IMG/VR virus record: IMGVR_UViG_2541047780_000004
Length of the DNA: 45,478 bases
From: a virus
Taxonomy: Duplodnaviria; Heunggongvirae; Uroviricota; Caudoviricetes
Strand: one strand, 5' to 3'
In this document: piece after piece, positions 1 to 45,478 of the stretch
Numbering within the stretch: the stretch's first letter is position 1
How the letters are laid out: each line of letters begins with the position of its first letter
Made by a program: the position numbers and the translations under genes
The notes under the pieces: generated by a model
Seen by the model: the letters and a program-made list of their open reading frames with translations, nothing else
What the model was told of the DNA's origin: nothing
Databases searched by the model: none

Positions 1-1143
1 CTATGCTGTTTTGATATCTACGATAATCCAGTCTTTACCACGATCATCATTGTATCGGTCGGTCATTTTTCTGGATTTATGACCTAACAACTTTTGCGTA
101 TCCAGACCCTGTTCCCGATATAACCGTTCTGACAGAGATCGCTGCTCATGAAATGTGGGCGCAGTTCCTGGCTCCCATTTTATGCCACATTTTTCCCTGG
201 CCTTTTTAAAAGCCGTTGTAAGAGTATTTGCAGACACCTGGTCTCCTCTGTTTGCTTGAGAGGTAGTGTGACGGTAATGGACCAGATATTTACTAACAAC
301 AGCATCCCTGCACTGAGATATAACTTCACGAAGGGTAATATTCAGAGCATCGCATTTCAGGTTAAGCGGAATAGCAAGTTTTGAACCGGTTTTTTCCTGA
401 GTAATGTGCAACATGTCGTCCCAGATATCAGAGAATTTCAAATTGCAGATATCGCCTAAACGTTGTCCAGTGACAAGAGCAAGTAGCATCCCGCATTTTA
501 AATAGGGCTGCCGTCTGCTTACGCTGTCAAATATTGCCTGCCATTCGGGCAGTGATAATCTTTGGCGGTTTACTCGATTTCGCGGTTGTTTTGTTGCCTG
601 CGCTGGGTTAAATCCTGGCGGAACATGTCCTGCGTGTTGTGCTTCTTTGAAGACGTCGATCAACACCATTCTCACGACTTGCGCCATCCTGTTATGACCT
701 TCAGCCTTTACAGCATCAATTATTTCGGCAATATCAAGTGCGGTAATATCCTTGAGGTGTTGCATTCCACAATGCTCACGGAAAAGACGAATGGGTTTGC
801 CTTTTTGCCGATAGGAGTTGGGTCTTAGTTCATTATGTTGCAGCCTGTCCTCCTGGATAGAAATATATTTATCAAGCCATTCTGTCACCGTAATGTCTGA
901 GCGCCTGCCTTTCATTCTTTCTAGACGCTCATTGACGCTTAATATTTGTCGGGTACGTTGTTCAGCAATAATGGTATTTGCTTCAGTAGCAACTTGTTTT
1001 GCTTCATTCTCATCAGTTCCTAAGCTATGAAAACGACCGGATAGTGGATGTTTGTATTGCCAATATACCTTTCCGGTTCGCTTATCTAATTTGCAATATA
1101 AATTGGGTATAGAGATTTTGTGAGATCGGGGTCTAGCAGCCAT
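1..1143 (-). CDS. int: Phage integrase, tyrosine recombinase (lambda-Int family)
   Basis: 380-aa ORF with ATG at 1141-1143 and stop at 1-3; C-terminal catalytic-domain-like sequence of tyrosine recombinases; overlaps the xis-like ORF by 11 nt as in lambda int-xis. Confidence 0.9.
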   Translation of the reverse strand: MAARPRSHKISIPNLYCKLDKRTGKVYWQYKHPLSGRFHSLGTDENEAKQVATEANTIIAEQRTRQILSVNERLERMKGRRSDITVTEWLDKYISIQEDRLQHNELRPNSYRQKGKPIRLFREHCGMQHLKDITALDIAEIIDAVKAEGHNRMAQVVRMVLIDVFKEAQHAGHVPPGFNPAQATKQPRNRVNRQRLSLPEWQAIFDSVSRRQPYLKCGMLLALVTGQRLGDICNLKFSDIWDDMLHITQEKTGSKLAIPLNLKCDALNITLREVISQCRDAVVSKYLVHYRHTTSQANRGDQVSANTLTTAFKKAREKCGIKWEPGTAPTFHEQRSLSERLYREQGLDTQKLLGHKSRKMTDRYNDDRGKDWIIVDIKTA

Positions 1144-13374: not shown

Positions 13375-14457
13375 TTAGAACTGATAAACCAGACCTACAG
13401 CGACGATGTCGTCGGTATCAATACCAGCTGTTTTGGTAAACTTACTATCGTCAATTAAGTTGATTTTGTAATCAACAAAAGTGGACATGTTTTTATTAAA
13501 GTAGTAAGTAGCACCGACATCGACATACTTGACTAAGTCTCGGTCACCATGAACACCAAGGTCTTTACCTTTTGACTGAAGGTAAGCAACAGATGGACGC
13601 AGACCGAAGTCAAACTGATATTGTGCTACTGCTTCAAAGTTTTGTGCTTTGTTTGCAATATGGTTATTACCAAAAACGGTCATATTCTGAGTTTCAGAAT
13701 ATGTGGTAGCCAGATAGATATTGTTCGCATCATATTTCAGGCCTGCAGCCCATACTTCCGCATTTTTGCCGGAGGCATTGAATTTGCTCTTACCATAGGC
13801 GACCTGACCGTCAGTGCGATCTGATTTAGCATAGGTTGCACCCACGCCGAATCCTTCATACTCATAAGTAGTGGAGAAACCGAAACCATCACCATTGGCT
13901 TCAGTTACGTCAGTGCGGTCATTTTTACCCTGATACTGAGCAGCAAAGTTCAGGCCATCGACCAGACCAAAGAAGTCGTTGTTACGATAAGTTGCAACAC
14001 CAGTAGTGCGACCAGTCATGAACACATCTGTTTGGGTCCAGGTATCACCACCGAATTCTGGCAGAACGTCAGTCCACGCACCGATGTCGTATGCTACACC
14101 GTAGTTACGGCCGTAATCGATTGAGCCGTAATCACCAAATTTCAGGCCTGCAAATGCAAGACGGGTTTTGTCTTTGGAAGAACCTTGAGATTCAGCACGG
14201 TTGCCTTTGAATTCATATTCCCACTGACCGAAACCAGTCAGTTGATCGTTGATTTGGGTTTCACCTTTGAAGCCAAGACGGGCATAAGTAGTATCACCAT
14301 CATCTGCATCATTAGAGGAGAAGTAGTGCTTGGCATTAACTTTCCCGTATAGATCCAGCTTGTTACTGTCTTTATTATAAATTTCAGCTGCCTGAGCAGA
14401 CATCGCCATCAGTACTGATGCAGCTACAGCAGAAATTGCCACTGTTAATTTTTTCAT
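13375..14457 (-). CDS. nmpC: Outer-membrane porin (NmpC/OmpC-family general bacterial porin), apparently intact
   Basis: 360-aa product from ATG 14455-14457 with AAGGG RBS; signal peptide, AEIYNKD start of mature porin, C-terminal VYQF; the longer ORF-track start is unlikely. Confidence 0.85.
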
Positions 14458-14785
14458 TGTACGCCCTTTTTTTGAACTTTTATTAAAAAATGATGTCACT
14501 GCGCGATAAATATTCATCTAATCAATGTGATTATTTCAAGATGTAAGTTTTAGTTTCTCATTTAATTTGTGAAGTAGATCTCTATTTTTATCTGAACCTT
14601 TTCTATCTAATCCTATTCATGGCTCTTGTCTGAACAAAAATAAATCTATTAGCTAATTTATATTAATGGCACTTATTTATAAGTGCTCTATAATTCTTTA
14701 GCTTAATTTAAACAAACTAAAAATAACATCGGAAATTATTAACTGGTTATTTGTTGAAGTTTTCTTATGCATTTGTGGTGGTGTT

Positions 14786-39301: not shown

Positions 39302-42300
39302 ATGGGTAAAGGCAGCAGTAAGGGGCATACCCCGCGCGAAGCGAAGGACAACCTGAAATCATCCCAGATGCTGAGCGTGATAGACGCCATCAGCGAAGGG
39401 CCGGTTGAAGGTCCGGTGGATGGATTAAAAAGCGTGCTGCTGAACAGTACGCCGGTGCTGGACAGTGAGGGGAATACCAATATATTCGGCGTCACGGTGG
39501 TGTTCCGGGCCGGTGAGCAGGAGCAGACACCGCCGGAGGGATTTGAATCCTCCGGCTCCGAGACGGTGCTCGGTACAGAAGTGAAATATGACACGCCGAT
39601 CACCCGGACCATCACGTCGGCAAACATTGACCGTCTGCGTTTTACTTTCGGCGTGCAGGCACTGGTGGAAACCACCTCAAAGGGGGACAGGAATCCATCG
39701 GAAGTCCGCCTGCTGGTTCAGATTCAACGTAACGGTGGCTGGGTGACGGAAAAAGACATCACCATTAAGGGCAAAACCACGTCGCAGTATCTGGCCTCGG
39801 TGGTGGTGGATAACCTGCCGCCGCGCCCGTTTAATATCCGGATGCGCAGGATGACGCCGGACAGCACCACAGACCAGTTGCAGAACAAAACGCTCTGGTC
39901 GTCATACACCGAAATCATCGATGTGAAACAGTGCTACCCGAACACGGCACTGGTCGGCGTACAGGTGGACTCGGAGCAGTTCGGCAGCCAGCAGGTGAGC
40001 CGTAATTATCATCTTCGCGGGCGCATTCTGCAGGTGCCGTCGAACTATAACCCGCAGACGCGGCAATACAGCGGTATCTGGGACGGAACGTTTAAGCCAG
40101 CATACAGCAACAACATGGCCTGGTGTCTGTGGGATATGCTGACCCATCCGCGCTACGGCATGGGGAAACGTCTTGGTGCGGCAGATGTGGATAAATGGGC
40201 GCTGTATGTCATCGGCCAGAATTGCGACCAGTCAGTGCCGGACGGCTTTGGCGGCACGGAGCCGCGCATCACCTGTAATGCGTACCTGACCACACAGCGC
40301 AAGGCGTGGGATGTGCTCAGTGATTTTTGCTCGGCGATGCGCTGTATGCCGGTATGGAACGGGCAGACGCTGACATTCGTGCAGGACCGACCGTCGGATA
40401 AGGTGTGGACCTATAACCGCAGTAATGTGGTGATGCCGGATGATGGCGCGCCGTTCCGCTACAGCTTCAGCGCCCTGAAAGACCGCCATAATGCCGTTGA
40501 GGTGAACTGGATTGACCCGGATAACGGCTGGGAGACGGCGACAGAGCTTGTGGAGGACACGCAGGCCATTGCCCGTTACGGTCGTAACGTCACGAAGATG
40601 GATGCCTTTGGCTGTACCAGCCGGGGGCAGGCACACCGCGCCGGGCTGTGGCTGATTAAAACGGAGCTGCTGGAAACGCAGACCGTGGACTTCAGCGTGG
40701 GTGCAGAAGGGCTTCGCCATGTACCGGGCGATGTCATTGAAATCTGTGATGATGACTATGCGGGGATCAGCATCGGCGGGCGCGTGCTGGCGGTGAACAA
40801 CCAGACGCGGACACTGACGCTCGACCGTGAAATCACGCTGCCATCCTCCGGCACCACGCTGATAAGCCTGGCTGACGGACAGGGGAATCCGGTCAGCGTG
40901 GAGGTCCAGTCCGTCACCGACGGCGTGAAGGTAAAAGTGAGCCGTGTTCCTGACGGCGTTGCAGAATACAGCGTGTGGGGGCTGAAGTTGCCAACGTTGC
41001 GCCAGCGCCTGTTCCGCTGTGTGAGTATCCGTGAGAACGATGACGGCACGTATGCCATCACTGCCGTGCAGCATGTACCGGAAAAAGAGGCCATCGTGGA
41101 TAACGGGGCGCACTTTGACGGCGACCAGAGCGGCACGGTGAATGGTGTCACGCCGCCAGCGGTGCAGCACCTGACTGCCGAAGTCACCGCAGACAGCGGG
41201 GAATATCAGGTGCTGGCGCGCTGGGACACGCCGAAGGTGGTGAAGGGGGTGAGCTTTATGCTTCGCCTGACCGTGGCAGCGGATGACGGCAGTGAGCGGC
41301 TGGTCAGCACGGCCCGGACGACGGAAACCACATACCGCTTCAGGCAACTGGCGCTGGGGAACTACAGGCTGACAGTCCGGGCGGTAAATGCGTGGGGGCA
41401 GCAGGGCGATCCGGCATCGGTATCGTTCCGGATTGCCGCACCGGCAGCGCCGTCGCAGATTGAGCTGACACCGGGGTATTTTCAGATAACCGCCACGCCG
41501 CATCTTGCGGTTTATGATCCGACGGTACAGTTTGAGTTCTGGTTCTCGGAAAAGCGGATTGCGGATATCAGGCAGGTTGAAACCACAGCACGCTATCTTG
41601 GCACGGCGCTGTACTGGATAGCCGCCAGTATCAATATCAAACCGGGCCATGATTATTATTTTTACATCCGCAGTGTGAACACCGTTGGCAAATCGGCATT
41701 TGTGGAGGCTGTTGGCCAGCCGAGTGATGATGCATCCGGCTATCTGAATTTTTTCAAAGGAGAGATAGGGAAAACCCATCTGGCTCAGGAGTTGTGGACG
41801 CAGATTGATAACGGTCAGCTTGCGCCTGACCTGGCTGAAATCAGGACGTCCATTACGGGTGTCAGCAATGAAATCACGCAGACCGTCAATAAGAAACTGG
41901 AAGACCAGAGTGCAGCGATCCAGCAGATACAGAAGGTTCAGGTTGATACAAATAATAACCTGAACAGCATGTGGGCTGTGAAGCTGCAGCAGATGCAGGA
42001 CGGACGCCTTTATATCGCGGGTATTGGTGCCGGTGTTGAGAATACTCCTGACGGTATGCAGAGTCAGGTGCTGCTGGCGGCGGACAGGATTGCGATGATT
42101 AATCCTGCGAATGGCAACACAAAGCCGATGTTTGTTGGGCAGGGCGATCAGATATTCATGAACGAAGTGTTCCTGAAATATCTGACGGCTCCCACCATTA
42201 CCAGCGGTGGCAATCCCCCAACGTTTTCACTGACACCTGATGGTCGACTTTCTGCGAAAAATGCGGATATCAGCGGTAACGTGAACGCGAACTCCGGGAC

Positions 42301-42778
42301 GCTCAACAACGTCACGATTAATCAGAACTGTCGGATTCTGGGAAAACTGTCAGCTAACCAGATTGAAGGTGATATTGTCAAAACGGTGGGAAAAGCCTTT
42401 CCGAGAAATGGCAGTTATGCCAGCGGTACAATAACGGTCACTGTGTACGATGACCAGGCTTTTGACCGTCAGATAGTAGTCCCCCCCGTTCTGTTTCGTG
42501 GGGGTAAGCATGAAAACTTCAACAGCAACAACCAACAGTCATACTGGTATTCAACCTGTAAGCTGCAGGTACTGAAGAACGGACAGGAAATCTTTCAGCA
42601 ACCCGCGACGGATGTCAGCAGGGTATTTTCATCAGTCATTGATATGCCTGCCGGACACGGCCATGTCACCCTGACTTTCAATGTTTCTTCATATGGTGCT
42701 AATAACTGGACGCCAACGACCAGTATCAGCGACCTTCTTGTTGTTGTGATGAAGAAATCTACAGCCGGTATCAGTTGA
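39302..42778 (+). CDS. J: Host specificity protein J (central tail fibre / tip attachment protein)
   Basis: 1158-aa product; the first about 1000 aa closely resemble lambda J as recalled; the C-terminal about 130 aa diverge. Confidence 0.95.
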
Positions 42779-42797
42779 ATTTTATAACCCAGATACG

Positions 42798-42822
42798 GGC
42801 GCCAGAAATGGCGCCTTTTTTA
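42798..42822 (+). terminator. Rho-independent terminator after J
   Basis: GGCGCC-AGAAAT-GGCGCC followed by TTTTTTATTT. Confidence 0.6.
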
Positions 42823-42836
42823 TTTGTGGAGTGAAT

Positions 42837-44897
42837 ATGGCAGTACAGATTTCAGGCGTGCTGAAAGACGGTGCAGGAAAACCGATACAGAACTGCACCA
42901 TTCAGCTCAAAGCAAAACGTAACAGCACCACGGTTGTGGTGAACACGGTGGCCTCAGAAAATCCGGATGAAGCCGGACGTTACAGCATGGATGTCGAGTA
43001 TGGCCAGTACAGCGTTATCCTGCTGGTTGAAGGTTTTCCGCCTTCACATGCCGGGGCCATCACCGTGTATGAGGATTCTAAGCCGGGGACATTGAATGAT
43101 TTTCTGGGCGCTGCAACAGAAGATGATGTTCGTCCGGAGGCACTGTATCGTTTTGAAAAGATGGTGGAAGAGGTGGCACGCAACGCTGAAGCCGCCTCTC
43201 AGAGCGCAGCGGCAGCAAAGAAATCAGAAACAGCAGCGGCATCGTCCAGGAATGCGGCGAAAACATCAGAGACGAATGCAGGTAACAGCGCGAAAGCGGC
43301 AGCTTCTTCAAAAACAGCCGCACAAAACGCAGCAACAGCGGCAGAACGTTCAGAGACAAATGCCCGTGCGTCAGAAGAAGCCTCCGCAGACAGTGAAGAG
43401 GCTTCCCGCCGTAATGCAGAGTCAGCCGCTGAAAATGCCGGAGTCGCCACCACAAAAGCGCGGGAGGCCGCAGCAGACGCAACAAAGGCCGGGCAGAAAA
43501 AGGATGAGGCTCTGTCGGCAGCGACACGGGCTGAAAAGGCGGCAGACCGCGCAGAAGTCGCAGCGGAAGTGACTGCAGAGCCCTATGCGAATATAGTGCC
43601 GCCGCTGCCTGATGTGTGGATACCGTTTAACGATTCACTGGATATGATTGCGGGTTTTTCTCCGGGCTATAAAAAAATAGCTATTGGTGACGATGTGGTT
43701 CAGGTCGCCAGTGATAAACAGGTTAATTTCAGTCGCGCATCAACGGCAACATATATCAACAAATCTGGCGAACTGAAAACGGCGGAAATTAATGAGCCGC
43801 GATTTGAGTGTGATGGCCTGCTTATTGAGGGACAAAGAACGAACTACATGCTCAATTCGGAAAGTCCAGCCAGCTGGGGGAAGTCATCAAACATGGATGT
43901 GCCCGAAACCGGGACAGATAGTTTTGGTTTTACTTATGGAAAGTTTGTCTGCAACGATTCTCTGGTTGGGCAAACTTCGGCTATTAATATGGCATCAATT
44001 GCTGCAACAAAGTCAGTTGATGTCTCAGGCGATAACAAGTACGTGACAACCTCATGCCGTTTTAAAACAGAACGACAGGTAAGGTTACGTATACGGTTTG
44101 ATAAGTATGATGGTAGTGCAACAACTTTTCTTGGCGATGCGTACATTGATACGCAAACGCTTGAAATTAATATGACAGGTGGGGCTGCCGGCAGAATTAC
44201 GGCACGAGTCAGGAAGGATAAGACCACAGGCTGGATTTTTGCAGAGGCAACGATTCAGGCAATTGATGGTGAGTTAAAAATAGGCTCTCAGATACAGTAT
44301 TCTCCTGAGCGGGGTGGGGCAACAGTATCTGGTGACTATATTTATCTTGCCACCCCACAAGTAGAGAATGGGCCGTGTGTATCATCATTTATTATTTCAG
44401 GAGGCAGCGCAACGACAAGAGCCAGTGATTTGGTTAGTATCCCCACCAGAAATAATCTTTATAAGTTACCATTTACTTTTTTACTTGAGATTCATAAAAA
44501 CTGGGATATTGCACCAAACGCCGCACCCCGCGTGTGGGATATAGCAGCAGCCAATACCGGGCAATCAGCAATTGCAGCAATCAACAGAGGTAGTGGTAAG
44601 TTATATATGAGTCTGTCAAACCCTTCAGGCTTGTATGTTAATAGCGCAGCGACAGATGTATTTGCAGAGAAAACCACATTTGGATGTATTGCAAAAGCTG
44701 ATGGTCACTTTCATGTGGTGACAAATGGTAAAGCGGTTAATGAAGTTTATTGTGAATATAATGGTGTGACCGCTGATAAAAATATCCGATTTGGAGGGCA
44801 GACGAATACTGGAGAACGACATCTGTTTGGCCATATTCGCAATTTCCGCATATGGCATAAAGAATTAAATGACAGGCAATTAAAAGAGGTCGTATGA
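42837..44897 (+). CDS. Side tail fibre protein (prophage tail-fibre N-terminal domain, Ala-rich repeat shaft, divergent C-terminal domain)
   Basis: ATG at 42837 five nt after GGAG (ORF-track start 42831 is GTG); N-terminus MAVQISGVLKDGAGKPIQNCTIQL is typical of lambdoid Stf proteins; central repeats (SETAAASSRNAAKTSETNAGNSAKAAASS...); C-terminal about 430 aa unassigned. Confidence 0.75.
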   Translation: MAVQISGVLKDGAGKPIQNCTIQLKAKRNSTTVVVNTVASENPDEAGRYSMDVEYGQYSVILLVEGFPPSHAGAITVYEDSKPGTLNDFLGAATEDDVRPEALYRFEKMVEEVARNAEAASQSAAAAKKSETAAASSRNAAKTSETNAGNSAKAAASSKTAAQNAATAAERSETNARASEEASADSEEASRRNAESAAENAGVATTKAREAAADATKAGQKKDEALSAATRAEKAADRAEVAAEVTAEPYANIVPPLPDVWIPFNDSLDMIAGFSPGYKKIAIGDDVVQVASDKQVNFSRASTATYINKSGELKTAEINEPRFECDGLLIEGQRTNYMLNSESPASWGKSSNMDVPETGTDSFGFTYGKFVCNDSLVGQTSAINMASIAATKSVDVSGDNKYVTTSCRFKTERQVRLRIRFDKYDGSATTFLGDAYIDTQTLEINMTGGAAGRITARVRKDKTTGWIFAEATIQAIDGELKIGSQIQYSPERGGATVSGDYIYLATPQVENGPCVSSFIISGGSATTRASDLVSIPTRNNLYKLPFTFLLEIHKNWDIAPNAAPRVWDIAAANTGQSAIAAINRGSGKLYMSLSNPSGLYVNSAATDVFAEKTTFGCIAKADGHFHVVTNGKAVNEVYCEYNGVTADKNIRFGGQTNTGERHLFGHIRNFRIWHKELNDRQLKEVV

Positions 44898-45172
44898 AAG
44901 ATTTAACTTTGAAGTTTCATGACAAACTGCAGTTTAAGGCCTTCCTGTCATCTCTTGACTGGGAGGAGGATGAAGACCTCCAGAATAAACTGTTAGTCGA
45001 TGAAATTGGTTTCACCTACACAGAAACAGGGGTAACAGAAGAGGGAGAACCTGTCTGTGTCCGGAATGACGGTTATTTTGTCAACATTCGCATTCTTGAT
45101 GACTTGTTTGATGTTTCTGTATTCTCTGATTATGTCGTGGAGCTGGAAACACCGCTTCGGGAATGGAGCTGA
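44894..45172 (+). CDS. Hypothetical acidic protein translationally coupled to the tail fibre gene
   Basis: ATG overlaps the stf stop (ATGA); 92 aa; no resemblance to Tfa-type fibre chaperones that I recognise. Confidence 0.5.
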   Translation: MKDLTLKFHDKLQFKAFLSSLDWEEDEDLQNKLLVDEIGFTYTETGVTEEGEPVCVRNDGYFVNIRILDDLFDVSVFSDYVVELETPLREWS

Positions 45173-45184
45173 AAGGAGGAAATA

Positions 45185-45478
45185 ATGGATATAAGCCCCT
45201 TACTTCATGCGCTTTGTGCTGTGGCTGCGCAGATACTGGTTGGTCTTTTTACCGGAAACTGGGCTTACGGAGCGATAGCCGGTTGTACGTTCTTCATTGC
45301 GCGTGAACATACCCAGGCAGAATATCGCTGGATTGAAATGTTCGGGCATGGCAAGCGAATGAATATGCCGTGGTGGGGCGGTTTTGATCCGCGAGCTTGG
45401 GATGTGGCAAGCCTGATGGATTTTGCTGTGCCGGTGGTGGCGTGTCTGCTGGTCTGGCTGTTGGTTAATCGTGGGTGA
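45185..45478 (+). CDS. Hypothetical small membrane protein
   Basis: 97-aa ORF with AAAGGAGGA RBS; two or three predicted hydrophobic segments; stop at the window end. Confidence 0.5.
   Translation: MDISPLLHALCAVAAQILVGLFTGNWAYGAIAGCTFFIAREHTQAEYRWIEMFGHGKRMNMPWWGGFDPRAWDVASLMDFAVPVVACLLVWLLVNRG

What the first reader, a model, noticed from the sequence alone, without database searches (positions are those of the whole stretch)
42837..45478. Divergent side tail fibre followed by two small unknown ORFs instead of a recognisable Tfa chaperone
The tail fibre has a standard lambdoid N-terminus and an Ala-rich repeat shaft, but a roughly 430-aa C-terminal region I cannot assign. It is followed by a translationally coupled 92-aa acidic protein and a 97-aa membrane protein, neither resembling Tfa-type assembly chaperones. 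The region is more AT-rich than the tail genes, consistent with a swapped host-range module. The downstream ORFs could be a novel fibre chaperone plus a membrane protein (exclusion, receptor modification or toxin are all possibilities).
Basis: partly seen in the sequence, partly recalled or inferred. Interest (0 to 1): 0.55.

Follow-up and report, generated by a model that had tools for sequence, protein, structure and literature searches.

The report
Lectin-headed side fibre with partner protein
This is the side tail fibre locus of phage 21-type prophages: the fibre ends in a sugar-binding-type head related to a gene transfer agent's head spike, it always travels with a small uncharacterised partner protein in place of the usual Tfa chaperone, and a separate, highly conserved small membrane protein of unknown function follows.

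Summary
The three ORFs are stf (42837-44897), a 92-aa acidic protein (44894-45172, ATGA overlap with stf) and a 97-aa membrane protein (45185-45478). The DNA is 99.8% identical to classical phage 21, and the p92-p97 DNA matches 1,903 of 5,426 complete E. coli genomes.

- **Fibre C-terminus.** It can be assigned: a GTA head-spike-fibre domain (NF048003; homologous to RcGTA Rcc01080), then a ConA/LamG-like domain. GC drops at stf residue ~255 and stays low through p92. Stf 255-688 plus p92 is therefore one acquired cassette.
- **p92.** It is not Tfa-like. It belongs to a broad, uncharacterised phage family. In all 13 contexts inspected, it abuts or overlaps a gene for this same head module. These include lambda-, T1-, T5-, Seuratvirus-, Mu- and P2-like phages. 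It is probably a dedicated assembly or accessory factor; this is inferred, not shown.
- **p97.** It belongs to an independent, very conserved three-helix membrane family. Members sit directly after receptor-binding genes of many phage types and also occur alone in chromosomes. Its function is unknown; an envelope-acting, exclusion-type role is the best guess.

This is an ordinary locus whose two small genes have not been characterised.

The parts
42797..42826 (+). Terminator-like GC hairpin plus T-run between J and stf
   Evidence: GGGCGCCAGAAATGGCGCCT followed by a T-run. It is annotated as a terminator in phage 21. This is a consensus match only.
42837..44897 (+). stf, side tail fibre (686 aa from the ATG)
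   Evidence: ORF. 99.8% DNA identity to phage 21 CPT_21_22 'side tail fiber'. Best PHROG is phrog_1419 (tail).
42837..43229 (+). N-terminal anchor domain (phage_tail_N)
   Evidence: PF08400, E 9.8e-69, residues 3-133. GC is like that of the tail genes.
43158..43580 (+). Ala-rich shaft (residues ~110-250)
   Evidence: 35.5% Ala over residues 108-248, with no DNA tandem repeat. A coiled-coil or helical shaft is inferred from composition only.
43593..43820 (+). Conserved joint at the start of the acquired head module (residues 255-330, IVPPLPDVWIPFNDSL...)
   Evidence: 70-84% identical among Escherichia relatives whose neighbouring domains differ. The GC drop begins here. Homology with the non-lambdoid, Mu-like, T1-like and T5-like fibre proteins begins here.
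43821..44423 (+). GTA head-spike-fibre domain (residues 331-531)
   Evidence: NCBIfam NF048003, 55.3 bits against a cut-off of 36. RcGTA Rcc01080 (PDB 6tb9) aligns to residues 299-545, E 6.5e-10. All 18 related fibre modules hit NF048003. The domain is exchanged independently, with 37-97% identity between relatives.
44514..44879 (+). ConA/LamG-like lectin-fold domain (residues 562-683)
   Evidence: PF13385 Laminin_G_3 scores 23.9-25.1 bits, just under the 27.6 cut-off. 9 of 18 homologous modules match at E<=0.01, up to 39 bits. The homologous Bas32 Gp22 end is described as a 'galectin-like domain' (PMC11990801).
44894..45172 (+). p92: small acidic partner protein of the head module (phrog_1361/18574 family)
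   Evidence: ATGA overlap with stf. Same low GC as stf 255-688. AF2 alpha/beta model, pLDDT 89.7. Always directly downstream of a GTA_spike_fiber protein.
45185..45478 (+). p97: three-helix membrane protein (phrog_1443 family), a separate unit
   Evidence: Strong ribosome-binding site 12 nt after the p92 stop. GC 0.531. AF2 pLDDT 93.7 with three helices. Invariant motif AREHTQAEYRWI...MPWWGGFD. 577 relatives in many Proteobacteria.

Best explanation
The region holds three units.

**1. stf is a modular side tail fibre.**
- A lambdoid N-terminal anchor (phage_tail_N) and an Ala-rich shaft carry a horizontally acquired head of about 430 aa.
- The head is a GTA head-spike-fibre domain followed by a ConA/LamG-like beta-sandwich.
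- By homology with RcGTA Rcc01080 (a capsule-binding head fibre) and with the lateral fibres of T1-, T5- and Seuratvirus-type coliphages, the head most likely binds a surface polysaccharide (O-antigen, LPS or capsule). This would give reversible first contact before J binds its terminal receptor. This step is inferred.

**2. p92 is the cognate partner of this head module, not of lambdoid fibres as such.**
- It moves with the module, is translationally coupled to it and is under purifying selection.
- Its most likely role is a dedicated folding, assembly or capping factor that replaces Tfa for this non-Tfa type of fibre end. This step is inferred.

**3. p97 is an independent gene of a widespread, very conserved small inner-membrane family.**
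- Phages repeatedly place it immediately after their receptor-binding protein genes.
- Its most likely role is an envelope-acting accessory function, such as superinfection exclusion or receptor masking. This is a weak inference.
For: **Identity**
- 99.8% identical to phage 21, ev017 and PhiR63_2.

**Domains**
- PF08400.
- NF048003 above its cut-off, and homology to Rcc01080.
- LamG_3 in 9 of 18 related modules and NF048003 in all 18.

**Cassette**
- GC is 0.553 for stf 1-254, 0.434 for stf 255-688, 0.427 for p92 and 0.531 for p97.
- Sub-domains are mosaic between relatives.

**Pairing of p92 with the head module.** It is found with stop/start overlap or abutment (ATGA, TAATG, TGATG) in:
- lambdoid Stf;
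- a non-lambdoid siphophage, between the capsid and tail-tube genes;
- a Leclercia prophage, after J;
- a baseplate-J myovirus that also has its own Tfa for a second fibre;
- a Mu-like phage;
- a P2-like Aeromonas phage;
- Comamonas-type prophages;
- virulent Bas05, Bas25, Bas32 and fp01.

**Selection and fold**
- p92 shows pN 0.22 against pS 0.94 between lineages that lack a distal fibre.

**p97**
- It follows lambdoid Stf, a P2-like fibre, tailspikes, J-like proteins, a P22-like tailspike and the phiHAP-1 tail fibre assembly gene.
- It also occurs alone in chromosomes.

**Glycan-binding precedent**
- RcGTA head fibres bind the capsule (PMC7296036).
- Lateral fibres of these coliphage groups target O-antigen (PMC8594841).
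Against: - There is no direct evidence that p92 binds the fibre or helps it fold.
- RcGTA Rcc01080 and the Chelativorans module (L041) have no adjacent p92 gene. The GTA-type domain can therefore exist without p92.
- p92 identity does not track any variable fibre sub-domain. That is unlike Tfa proteins, whose variable half matches the fibre tip.
- In Bas32 the homologue (Gp23) is annotated 'tail fiber protein' and lies between the proximal and distal fibre genes. A structural role is therefore equally open.
- For p97 no promoter or terminator of its own was found, and in Comamonas-type phages it is translationally coupled to p92. Both argue against a simple lysogen-expressed moron.
- Partial p97 homologues occur in Aeromonas jumbo phages of about 235 kb.
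- The receptor of this fibre is not known.
Confidence: 0.55

Rival explanations
1. p92 is a virion component. It would be a small connector or tip protein on the fibre head, for example the dock for a second, distal fibre in a branched lateral fibre, rather than a non-structural chaperone.
For: - In many relatives a short fibre gene follows p92. It carries a Peptidase_S74 intramolecular-chaperone domain and a conserved N-terminus (MATSTVIP.DI..LK.DVS). Examples are L003-6, L016, L018, L087, Bas05, Bas25, fp01 and Bas32.
- 32 of 80 IMG/VR loci have such an insert between p92 and p97.
- Bas32 Gp23 is annotated 'tail fiber protein', and Gp24 is modelled as attaching to the proximal fibre (PMC11990801).
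Against: - p92 is kept, under purifying selection, in phage 21-type, Mu-like and Comamonas-type loci that encode no distal fibre.
- No virion proteomics were found.
Confidence: 0.25
2. p97 belongs functionally to the fibre system. It would be made together with the fibre and act at the inner membrane on synthesis or export of the glycan that the fibre binds. That would keep progeny from being trapped on debris and block superinfection.
For: - The three-gene order (head module, p92, p97) recurs in Escherichia, Pantoea and Comamonas-type prophages, with overlapping stops and starts in the last.
- In Chelativorans, p97 directly follows a head module without p92.
- In JEP4 it overlaps the end of a P22-like tailspike gene just before int. 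From my own knowledge, P22 carries O-antigen conversion genes at that site.
- Nearly half its residues are invariant from Escherichia to Comamonas and Aeromonas, which suggests a conserved host partner.
Against: - p97 has a different GC from the head-p92 cassette.
- It is absent from many p92 loci.
- It follows unrelated receptor-binding proteins and stands alone in chromosomes with unrelated neighbours.
- No glycan-pathway homology was detected.
Confidence: 0.2
3. p97 is a holin or another lysis-timing protein placed after the tail genes.
For: - It is a small multi-helix membrane protein at the end of the late operon.
- From my own knowledge, holins follow fibre genes in phages such as T4 and T7.
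- In Comamonas-type prophages a lysis cassette lies just downstream.
Against: - Those same prophages have their own holin-like genes directly upstream of the M15 endolysin, plus spanins.
- From my own knowledge, phage 21 has its own S21/R21 lysis genes elsewhere.
- p97 has no charged C-terminal tail.
- Its conservation is far higher than is usual for holins, and chromosomal orthologues lie in conserved positions in Aeromonas and sphingomonads.
- No holin family was hit.
Confidence: 0.07
4. p92 has nothing to do with the fibre. It would be, for example, an acidic DNA-mimic anti-defence protein or a random moron.
For: - It is small and very acidic (pI 4.1).
- It has no recognisable family.
Against: - It shows invariant synteny and translational coupling with one specific fibre module in at least 13 different phage backbones.
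- It shares base composition with that module.
- PADLOC gave no hit.
Confidence: 0.04

Closest known systems
Lambda Stf with its Tfa chaperone (PF08400 N-terminus; Caudo_TAP PF02413)
   Same: - The N-terminal anchor domain is the same, and the gene sits right after J.
- A small gene follows the fibre gene.
   Different: - The distal two thirds are unrelated to the lambda/T4 gp37-type tip.
- p92 has no Caudo_TAP signal and a different predicted fold.
- In one myovirus the head-p92 pair coexists with a separate fibre-Tfa pair.
RcGTA head spike fibre GhsB/Rcc01080 (PDB 6tb9; NCBIfam NF048003)
   Same: - It is homologous to stf residues 299-545 (E 6.5e-10), and the family model scores above its cut-off.
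- Rcc01080 binds the capsular polysaccharide (PMC7296036).
- Homologues were already noted in phages such as RcapMu (PMC5026251).
   Different: - Rcc01080 is a single subunit on a capsid pentamer base, held by an N-terminal Leu-Gly repeat. Here the domain sits at the end of a tail fibre.
- Only residues 2-10 of Rcc01080 are resolved, so there is no experimental fold to compare.
- Rcc01080 (325 aa) aligns only to stf 299-545, upstream of the LamG-like region, and it has no adjacent p92 gene.
Branched lateral tail fibres of T5-like phages (DT57C LtfA/LtfB; Bas32 IrisVonRoten Gp22-Gp23-Gp24)
   Same: - Bas32 gene 22 is the proximal fibre (its end is called 'galectin-like'), gene 23 is a p92 homologue and gene 24 is the distal fibre.
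- Such lateral fibres bind O-antigen (PMC8594841, PMC4728585).
   Different: - The window has no distal fibre gene.
- The small middle gene has not been characterised in those papers.
Small membrane or lipoprotein genes next to tail genes that block superinfection (HK97 gp15, T4 Imm, P2 Z/fun, Cor, T5 Llp). These are recalled from my own knowledge and were not compared by sequence.
   Same: - p97 is small and membrane-embedded, and it sits at the same hot spots: after stf, after a P22-like tailspike and between the P2-type fibre-assembly and sheath genes.
- An Aeromonas phage has a lipoprotein at that place after its p92 homologue.
   Different: - No sequence or fold relation was found.
- p97 has no lipobox.
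- p97 also has conserved chromosomal orthologues and no promoter of its own.

Membership tests
Lambdoid side tail fibre (Stf) | N-terminal phage_tail_N domain (PF08400) | tested here: met
   E 9.8e-69, 230 bits against a cut-off of 26.6, residues 3-133.
Lambdoid side tail fibre (Stf) | Gene immediately downstream of the J gene in a lambda-like tail operon | tested here: met
   J lies at 39302-42778 and stf at 42837. Phage 21 has the same order.
Lambdoid side tail fibre (Stf) | Lambda/T4 gp37-type distal tip that depends on a downstream Tfa | tested here: not met
   The distal 434 aa match NF048003 and LamG_3 instead. No Caudo_TAP gene follows.
Tfa / Caudo_TAP tail fibre assembly chaperone (PF02413), tested for p92 | Match to the PF02413 profile | tested here: not met
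   No hit at E<=1 for p92. The same library finds PF02413 in neighbouring genes of related loci (precomputed hits).
Tfa / Caudo_TAP tail fibre assembly chaperone (PF02413), tested for p92 | Fold similar to a solved Tfa | tested here: not met
Tfa / Caudo_TAP tail fibre assembly chaperone (PF02413), tested for p92 | Required for fibre folding, or stays bound to the fibre tip | not testable with these tools
   This needs co-expression, pull-down or a multimer prediction.
GTA head spike fibre domain (NCBIfam NF048003) | Score above the curated cut-off | tested here: met
   55.3 and 56.7 bits against a cut-off of 36. All 18 related modules match. PGAP names the gene this way.
GTA head spike fibre domain (NCBIfam NF048003) | Attachment to a capsid vertex through an N-terminal Leu-Gly repeat, as in Rcc01080 | tested here: not met
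   The N-terminus is phage_tail_N. The Rcc01080 motif is described in PMC7296036.
Concanavalin A-like lectin / Laminin_G_3 (PF13385) | Score above the gathering threshold | tested here: inconclusive
   23.9-25.1 bits against 27.6 in the window protein. 9 of 18 homologues match at E<=0.01, and L041 scores 39.2 bits.
Lom/Ail, GtrA, holins or T4 Imm-type exclusion proteins, tested for p97 | Match to any Pfam, NCBIfam or PADLOC model of these families | tested here: not met
   p97 has no significant family match. The Pfam scan of 59 family members gave only chance-level hits.
Cor/Llp-type exclusion lipoproteins, tested for p97 | Signal peptide with a conserved lipobox cysteine | tested here: not met
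   C11 is not conserved in the family alignment, and residues -3 to -1 are H-A-L.
Autonomous moron (own promoter and terminator), tested for p97 | Promoter upstream and terminator downstream of the gene | tested here: inconclusive
   There is no promoter-like site between p92 and p97 and no + strand terminator after p97 in phage 21. Site counts do not exceed those in shuffled sequence. The scan is a simple consensus scan.

The most novel reading that the evidence does not exclude
p92 would found a new, widespread class of fibre accessory proteins, unrelated to Tfa, gp57A or intramolecular S74 chaperones. This class would be specific to lectin-type (GTA-spike/LamG) fibre heads across sipho- and myoviruses. 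p97 would be a phage-borne copy of a conserved bacterial inner-membrane protein that controls access to, or synthesis of, the glycan receptor. Together they would form a fibre-partner-membrane protein cassette of a kind not yet described.
Probability: 0.25. Interest if true: 0.7.

Novelty: new variant of a known kind. Interest (0 to 1): 0.5.

Why it matters
- **Prevalence.** The p92-p97 DNA matches about a third of complete E. coli genomes. The fibre-p92 pair is in classical phage 21 and in virulent T1-, T5- and Seuratvirus-type phages used as models, yet both small genes are annotated 'hypothetical'.
- **If p92 is needed to make or arm this type of fibre head.** It would then have to be carried along whenever such heads are grafted onto lambda- or T5-based delivery particles or therapeutic phages. 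It would also add a new family to the short list of fibre assembly factors.
- **p97.** It is one of the most conserved small membrane proteins found next to receptor-binding genes. Finding its target could reveal a new exclusion or receptor-control mechanism, and a function for its chromosomal orthologues.

Tried and rejected
**Family and structure searches**
- Pfam, NCBIfam, PADLOC and PDB sequence searches of p92 and p97 gave no significant hit.
- Foldseek of the p92 model against BFVD returned only uncharacterised phage proteins.
- The afdb50 fold library was not available.

**Remote homology of p92**
- An HMM built from close p92 relatives did not reach the Comamonas/Pantoea proteins.
- hhalign of A1 against A4 was weak (E 0.0025, probability 12%).
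- The link was instead made through phrog_18574, the profile search of 1.84 billion representatives and the A5 profile.

**Other negative or unhelpful results**
- The IMG/VR scan with p97 returned only near-identical E. coli prophages among the 80 loci kept.
- Testing whether p92 identity co-varies with fibre sub-domains showed no tracking.
- Chromosomal neighbours of p97 were examined for an operon clue. They are heterogeneous: pirin, RIO1, porin, PFOR, ligA and PrmA.
- The promoter/terminator scan around p97 found nothing above chance.
- Tandem Repeats Finder found nothing in the shaft.
- Literature searches for phage 21 stf, the small gene or GhsB-type fibres in coliphages found no functional study of either small protein.

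**Readings rejected or downgraded**
- Rejected: p97 as a Lom, GtrA or Cor-type protein.
- Considered and downgraded: p97 as a holin.
- Rejected: an Stf-p92 frameshift fusion, because I saw no slippery heptamer at the ATGA junction (read).
Full report
**What is there**

The window is a lambdoid prophage. It runs from an integrase gene (1-1143, minus strand) to the end of the tail region. It is 100% identical over the p92-p97 stretch to the E. coli type strain ATCC 11775.

The flagged region is 99.8% identical to classical phage 21 (OL657228, genes CPT_21_22 to 24), ev017 and PhiR63_2. In phage 21 and PhiR63_2 the sitDCBA transporter genes follow on the other strand.

- stf at 42837-44897;
- p92 at 44894-45172, sharing ATGA with the stf stop;
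- p97 at 45185-45478, 12 nt further on behind an AGGAGG site.

**The fibre**

(Residues are numbered from the GTG at 42831, the 688-aa ORF.)
- Residues 3-133 are the lambdoid anchor domain PF08400 (E 1e-68).
- Residues ~108-248 are 35% alanine, with no DNA repeat.
- The remaining ~434 residues can be assigned.
  - NCBIfam NF048003 'GTA_spike_fiber' matches 331-531 above its cut-off (55 against 36 bits).
  - The only PDB sequence relative is the RcGTA head spike fibre Rcc01080 (6tb9, E 6.5e-10, aligned to residues 299-545).
  - Residues 562-683 match the ConA-like Laminin_G_3 model just under threshold.
  - 9 of 18 homologous modules match LamG_3, some above threshold.
- RcGTA head fibres bind the capsular polysaccharide. 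Only residues 2-10 are resolved in the structure, so there is no experimental fold for the homologous part (PMC7296036).
- Homologues of rcc01080 in phages, including RcapMu, had already been noted (PMC5026251).

**The head is a swapped cassette that includes p92**

GC is 0.553 in stf 1-254, like the tail genes. It falls at about position 43600 to 0.434 for stf 255-688 and 0.427 for p92, then rises to 0.531 in p97.

Among Escherichia relatives:
- the joint (255-330) and the last 38 residues stay 61-84% identical;
- the GTA-type domain (331-545) and most of the LamG-like domain (546-650) are exchanged independently, with 17-97% identity.

**p92**

Close relatives are confined to Escherichia and Shigella. 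A profile search of 1.84 billion representative proteins found 78 hits. About 30 are full-length proteins of 85-110 aa. They share the consensus M(K/R)DLYL(K/R)F...D.IG...GYHVNLR...P.tP.RVWA.

The Comamonas and Pantoea proteins join the family by three routes:
- phrog_18574, which is hit by both p92 (E 3e-6) and the Comamonas protein (E 3e-11);
- the multiple alignment A5, in which they align well;
- the profile built from A5 (itself including those three Comamonas/Pantoea rows), which detects further Comamonas-type (L181, L184) and Aeromonas members at E 1e-17 to 1e-22.

A direct profile-profile comparison was weak.

In all 13 distinct contexts inspected, the p92 homologue directly follows a gene whose C-terminal ~430 aa is homologous to stf 255-688. 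The stop and start overlap or abut (ATGA, TAATG or TGATG). Identity to the window module is 24-73%. All 18 such modules hit NF048003. The backbones are very different:
- lambdoid Stf;
- a non-lambdoid siphophage, where the gene lies between the capsid and tail-tube genes;
- a Leclercia prophage, after J;
- a myovirus with baseplate-J genes, which also carries a separate fibre with its own Caudo_TAP chaperone;
- a Mu-like phage, between the DNA-circulation and hub genes;
- a P2-like Aeromonas phage;
- Comamonas-type prophages;
- virulent phages Bas05 (T1-like), Bas25 (Seuratvirus), fp01 and Bas32 (T5-like).

Other properties of p92:
- The AF2 model is confident (pLDDT 89.7), a small alpha/beta fold with an extended conserved C-terminal tail.
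- It has no Caudo_TAP signal.
- Between two lineages that lack any distal fibre gene, synonymous sites are saturated (pS 0.94) while pN is 0.22, so the gene is maintained by selection.

What is shown is a strict, coupled genetic partnership with one fibre head module. What is inferred is the role, an assembly, folding or capping factor.

The main alternative is a structural connector. In many relatives a short fibre gene follows p92. It carries a Peptidase_S74 domain and a conserved N-terminus. In Bas32 the order is Gp22 (proximal fibre with a 'galectin-like' end), Gp23 (the p92 homologue) and Gp24 (distal T-shaped fibre) (PMC11990801).

**p97**

This is a different unit.
- It has a different GC and is absent from many p92 loci.
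- Its family is much wider, with 577 relatives. They include Aeromonas, Comamonas, Leclercia, Salmonella, sphingomonads, Halomonas and Desulfovibrio.
- About 20 positions are invariant. They include AREHTQAEYRWI and MPWWGGFD, and polar residues inside the predicted helices (H8, Q16, D79).
- The model has three helices (pLDDT 93.7).
- Fold and family searches give nothing specific.

In phages it sits directly after receptor-binding genes of many kinds:
- lambdoid Stf-p92;
- a P2-like fibre with an S74 domain;
- tailspikes;
- J-like proteins;
- the tail fibre assembly gene of phiHAP-1, just before the sheath gene;
- a GTA/LamG module without p92 in Chelativorans.

In Comamonas-type prophages it overlaps the p92 stop, and a complete separate lysis cassette follows. 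That argues against a holin role.

It also stands alone in chromosomes next to unrelated genes, at conserved positions in Aeromonas and in sphingomonads.

No promoter or terminator of its own was detected.

Its function is therefore unknown. An envelope-acting role, such as exclusion or receptor masking, is the best guess from position alone.

**Prevalence and status in the literature**

The p92-p97 DNA matches 1,903 of 5,426 complete E. coli genomes, 1,127 of them at 80% coverage or more. PGAP calls both genes 'hypothetical protein'.

I found no paper that characterises either small protein.

**Verdict**

The finding is a correct description of a common, already sequenced locus. It is not an oddity of this window. 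The comparative analysis assigns the fibre head and shows that p92 is the obligate partner of that head across phage families. It also shows that p97 is a separate, highly conserved membrane protein that phages recurrently place after their receptor-binding genes. The mechanisms proposed for the two small proteins are inferences.

Noticed in passing
window 13375-14517 (- strand): A 380-aa OmpC/OmpF-type porin gene lies in a low-GC stretch (0.38-0.41) of the prophage. The best PDB match is OmpC, E 8e-137. Related phages annotate it as OmpD/NmpC. It is a porin cargo gene.
   Followed up: partly
window 1-45478: The window is a lambdoid prophage running from int (1-1143, - strand) to the stop codon of p97. 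It is identical over p92-p97 to E. coli ATCC 11775. Many IMG/VR provirus records also end 3 nt after p97. In phage 21 the phage continues with sitDCBA, so the provirus boundary is probably drawn too early.
   Followed up: partly
L011 (phage 1W) 5654-8070; also 3W, 4A7, Lambda_4C10: A three-ORF mobile element is inserted near the 3' end of stf. It separates the last ~46 codons and p92-p97 from the rest of the gene.
   Followed up: no
L016 3918-4958, L018 4286-4990, L004 6341-7369, L175 4292-4987: A short second fibre gene (231-346 aa) lies between p92 and p97, or after p92. Peptidase_S74 was confirmed for L016 and L004. The N-terminus is conserved (MATSTVIP.DI..LK.DVS). The BASEL records call it 'putative lateral tail fiber chaperone'. 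32 of 80 IMG/VR loci carry an insert of matching size (about 730 or 1,100 nt) between p92 and p97.
   Followed up: partly
L003-L006 3887-6279: In a non-lambdoid E. coli prophage the head-module gene (671-704 aa) and p92 lie between the capsid gene and the tail-tube gene, not at the end of the tail operon. This position recalls the head-spike use of the domain in RcGTA.
   Followed up: partly
L180 (Aeromonas phage 14AhydR10PP) 4886-5143: After the head module and the p92 homologue comes an 85-aa protein with a lipoprotein-type signal (…LSAC) instead of p97. It is another small envelope protein at the same position.
   Followed up: no
L035 4432-4998, L042 4432-4998, L031 4484-4996: The p92 homologues of Comamonas (188 aa) and Pantoea (about 170 aa) carry an extra C-terminal domain. 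In the Comamonas protein that domain matches phrog_6034/14311, both of unknown function. In L022 and L181-186 the protein is only 91-95 aa.
   Followed up: no
L013, L019, L021, L025 (Aeromonas); L078, L080 (L078 Sphingomonas arvum; L080 an unclassified Pseudomonadota MAG): Chromosomal p97 orthologues sit at conserved, non-phage positions. In Aeromonas they lie next to pirin and RIO1 kinase genes. In L078 and L080 they lie directly after ligA. The family therefore also has a host function.
   Followed up: partly
window 42797-42826: A strong terminator-like hairpin lies between J and stf. Expression of stf-p92-p97 would then depend on read-through of the late transcript. Phage 21 annotates it as a terminator.
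   Followed up: no
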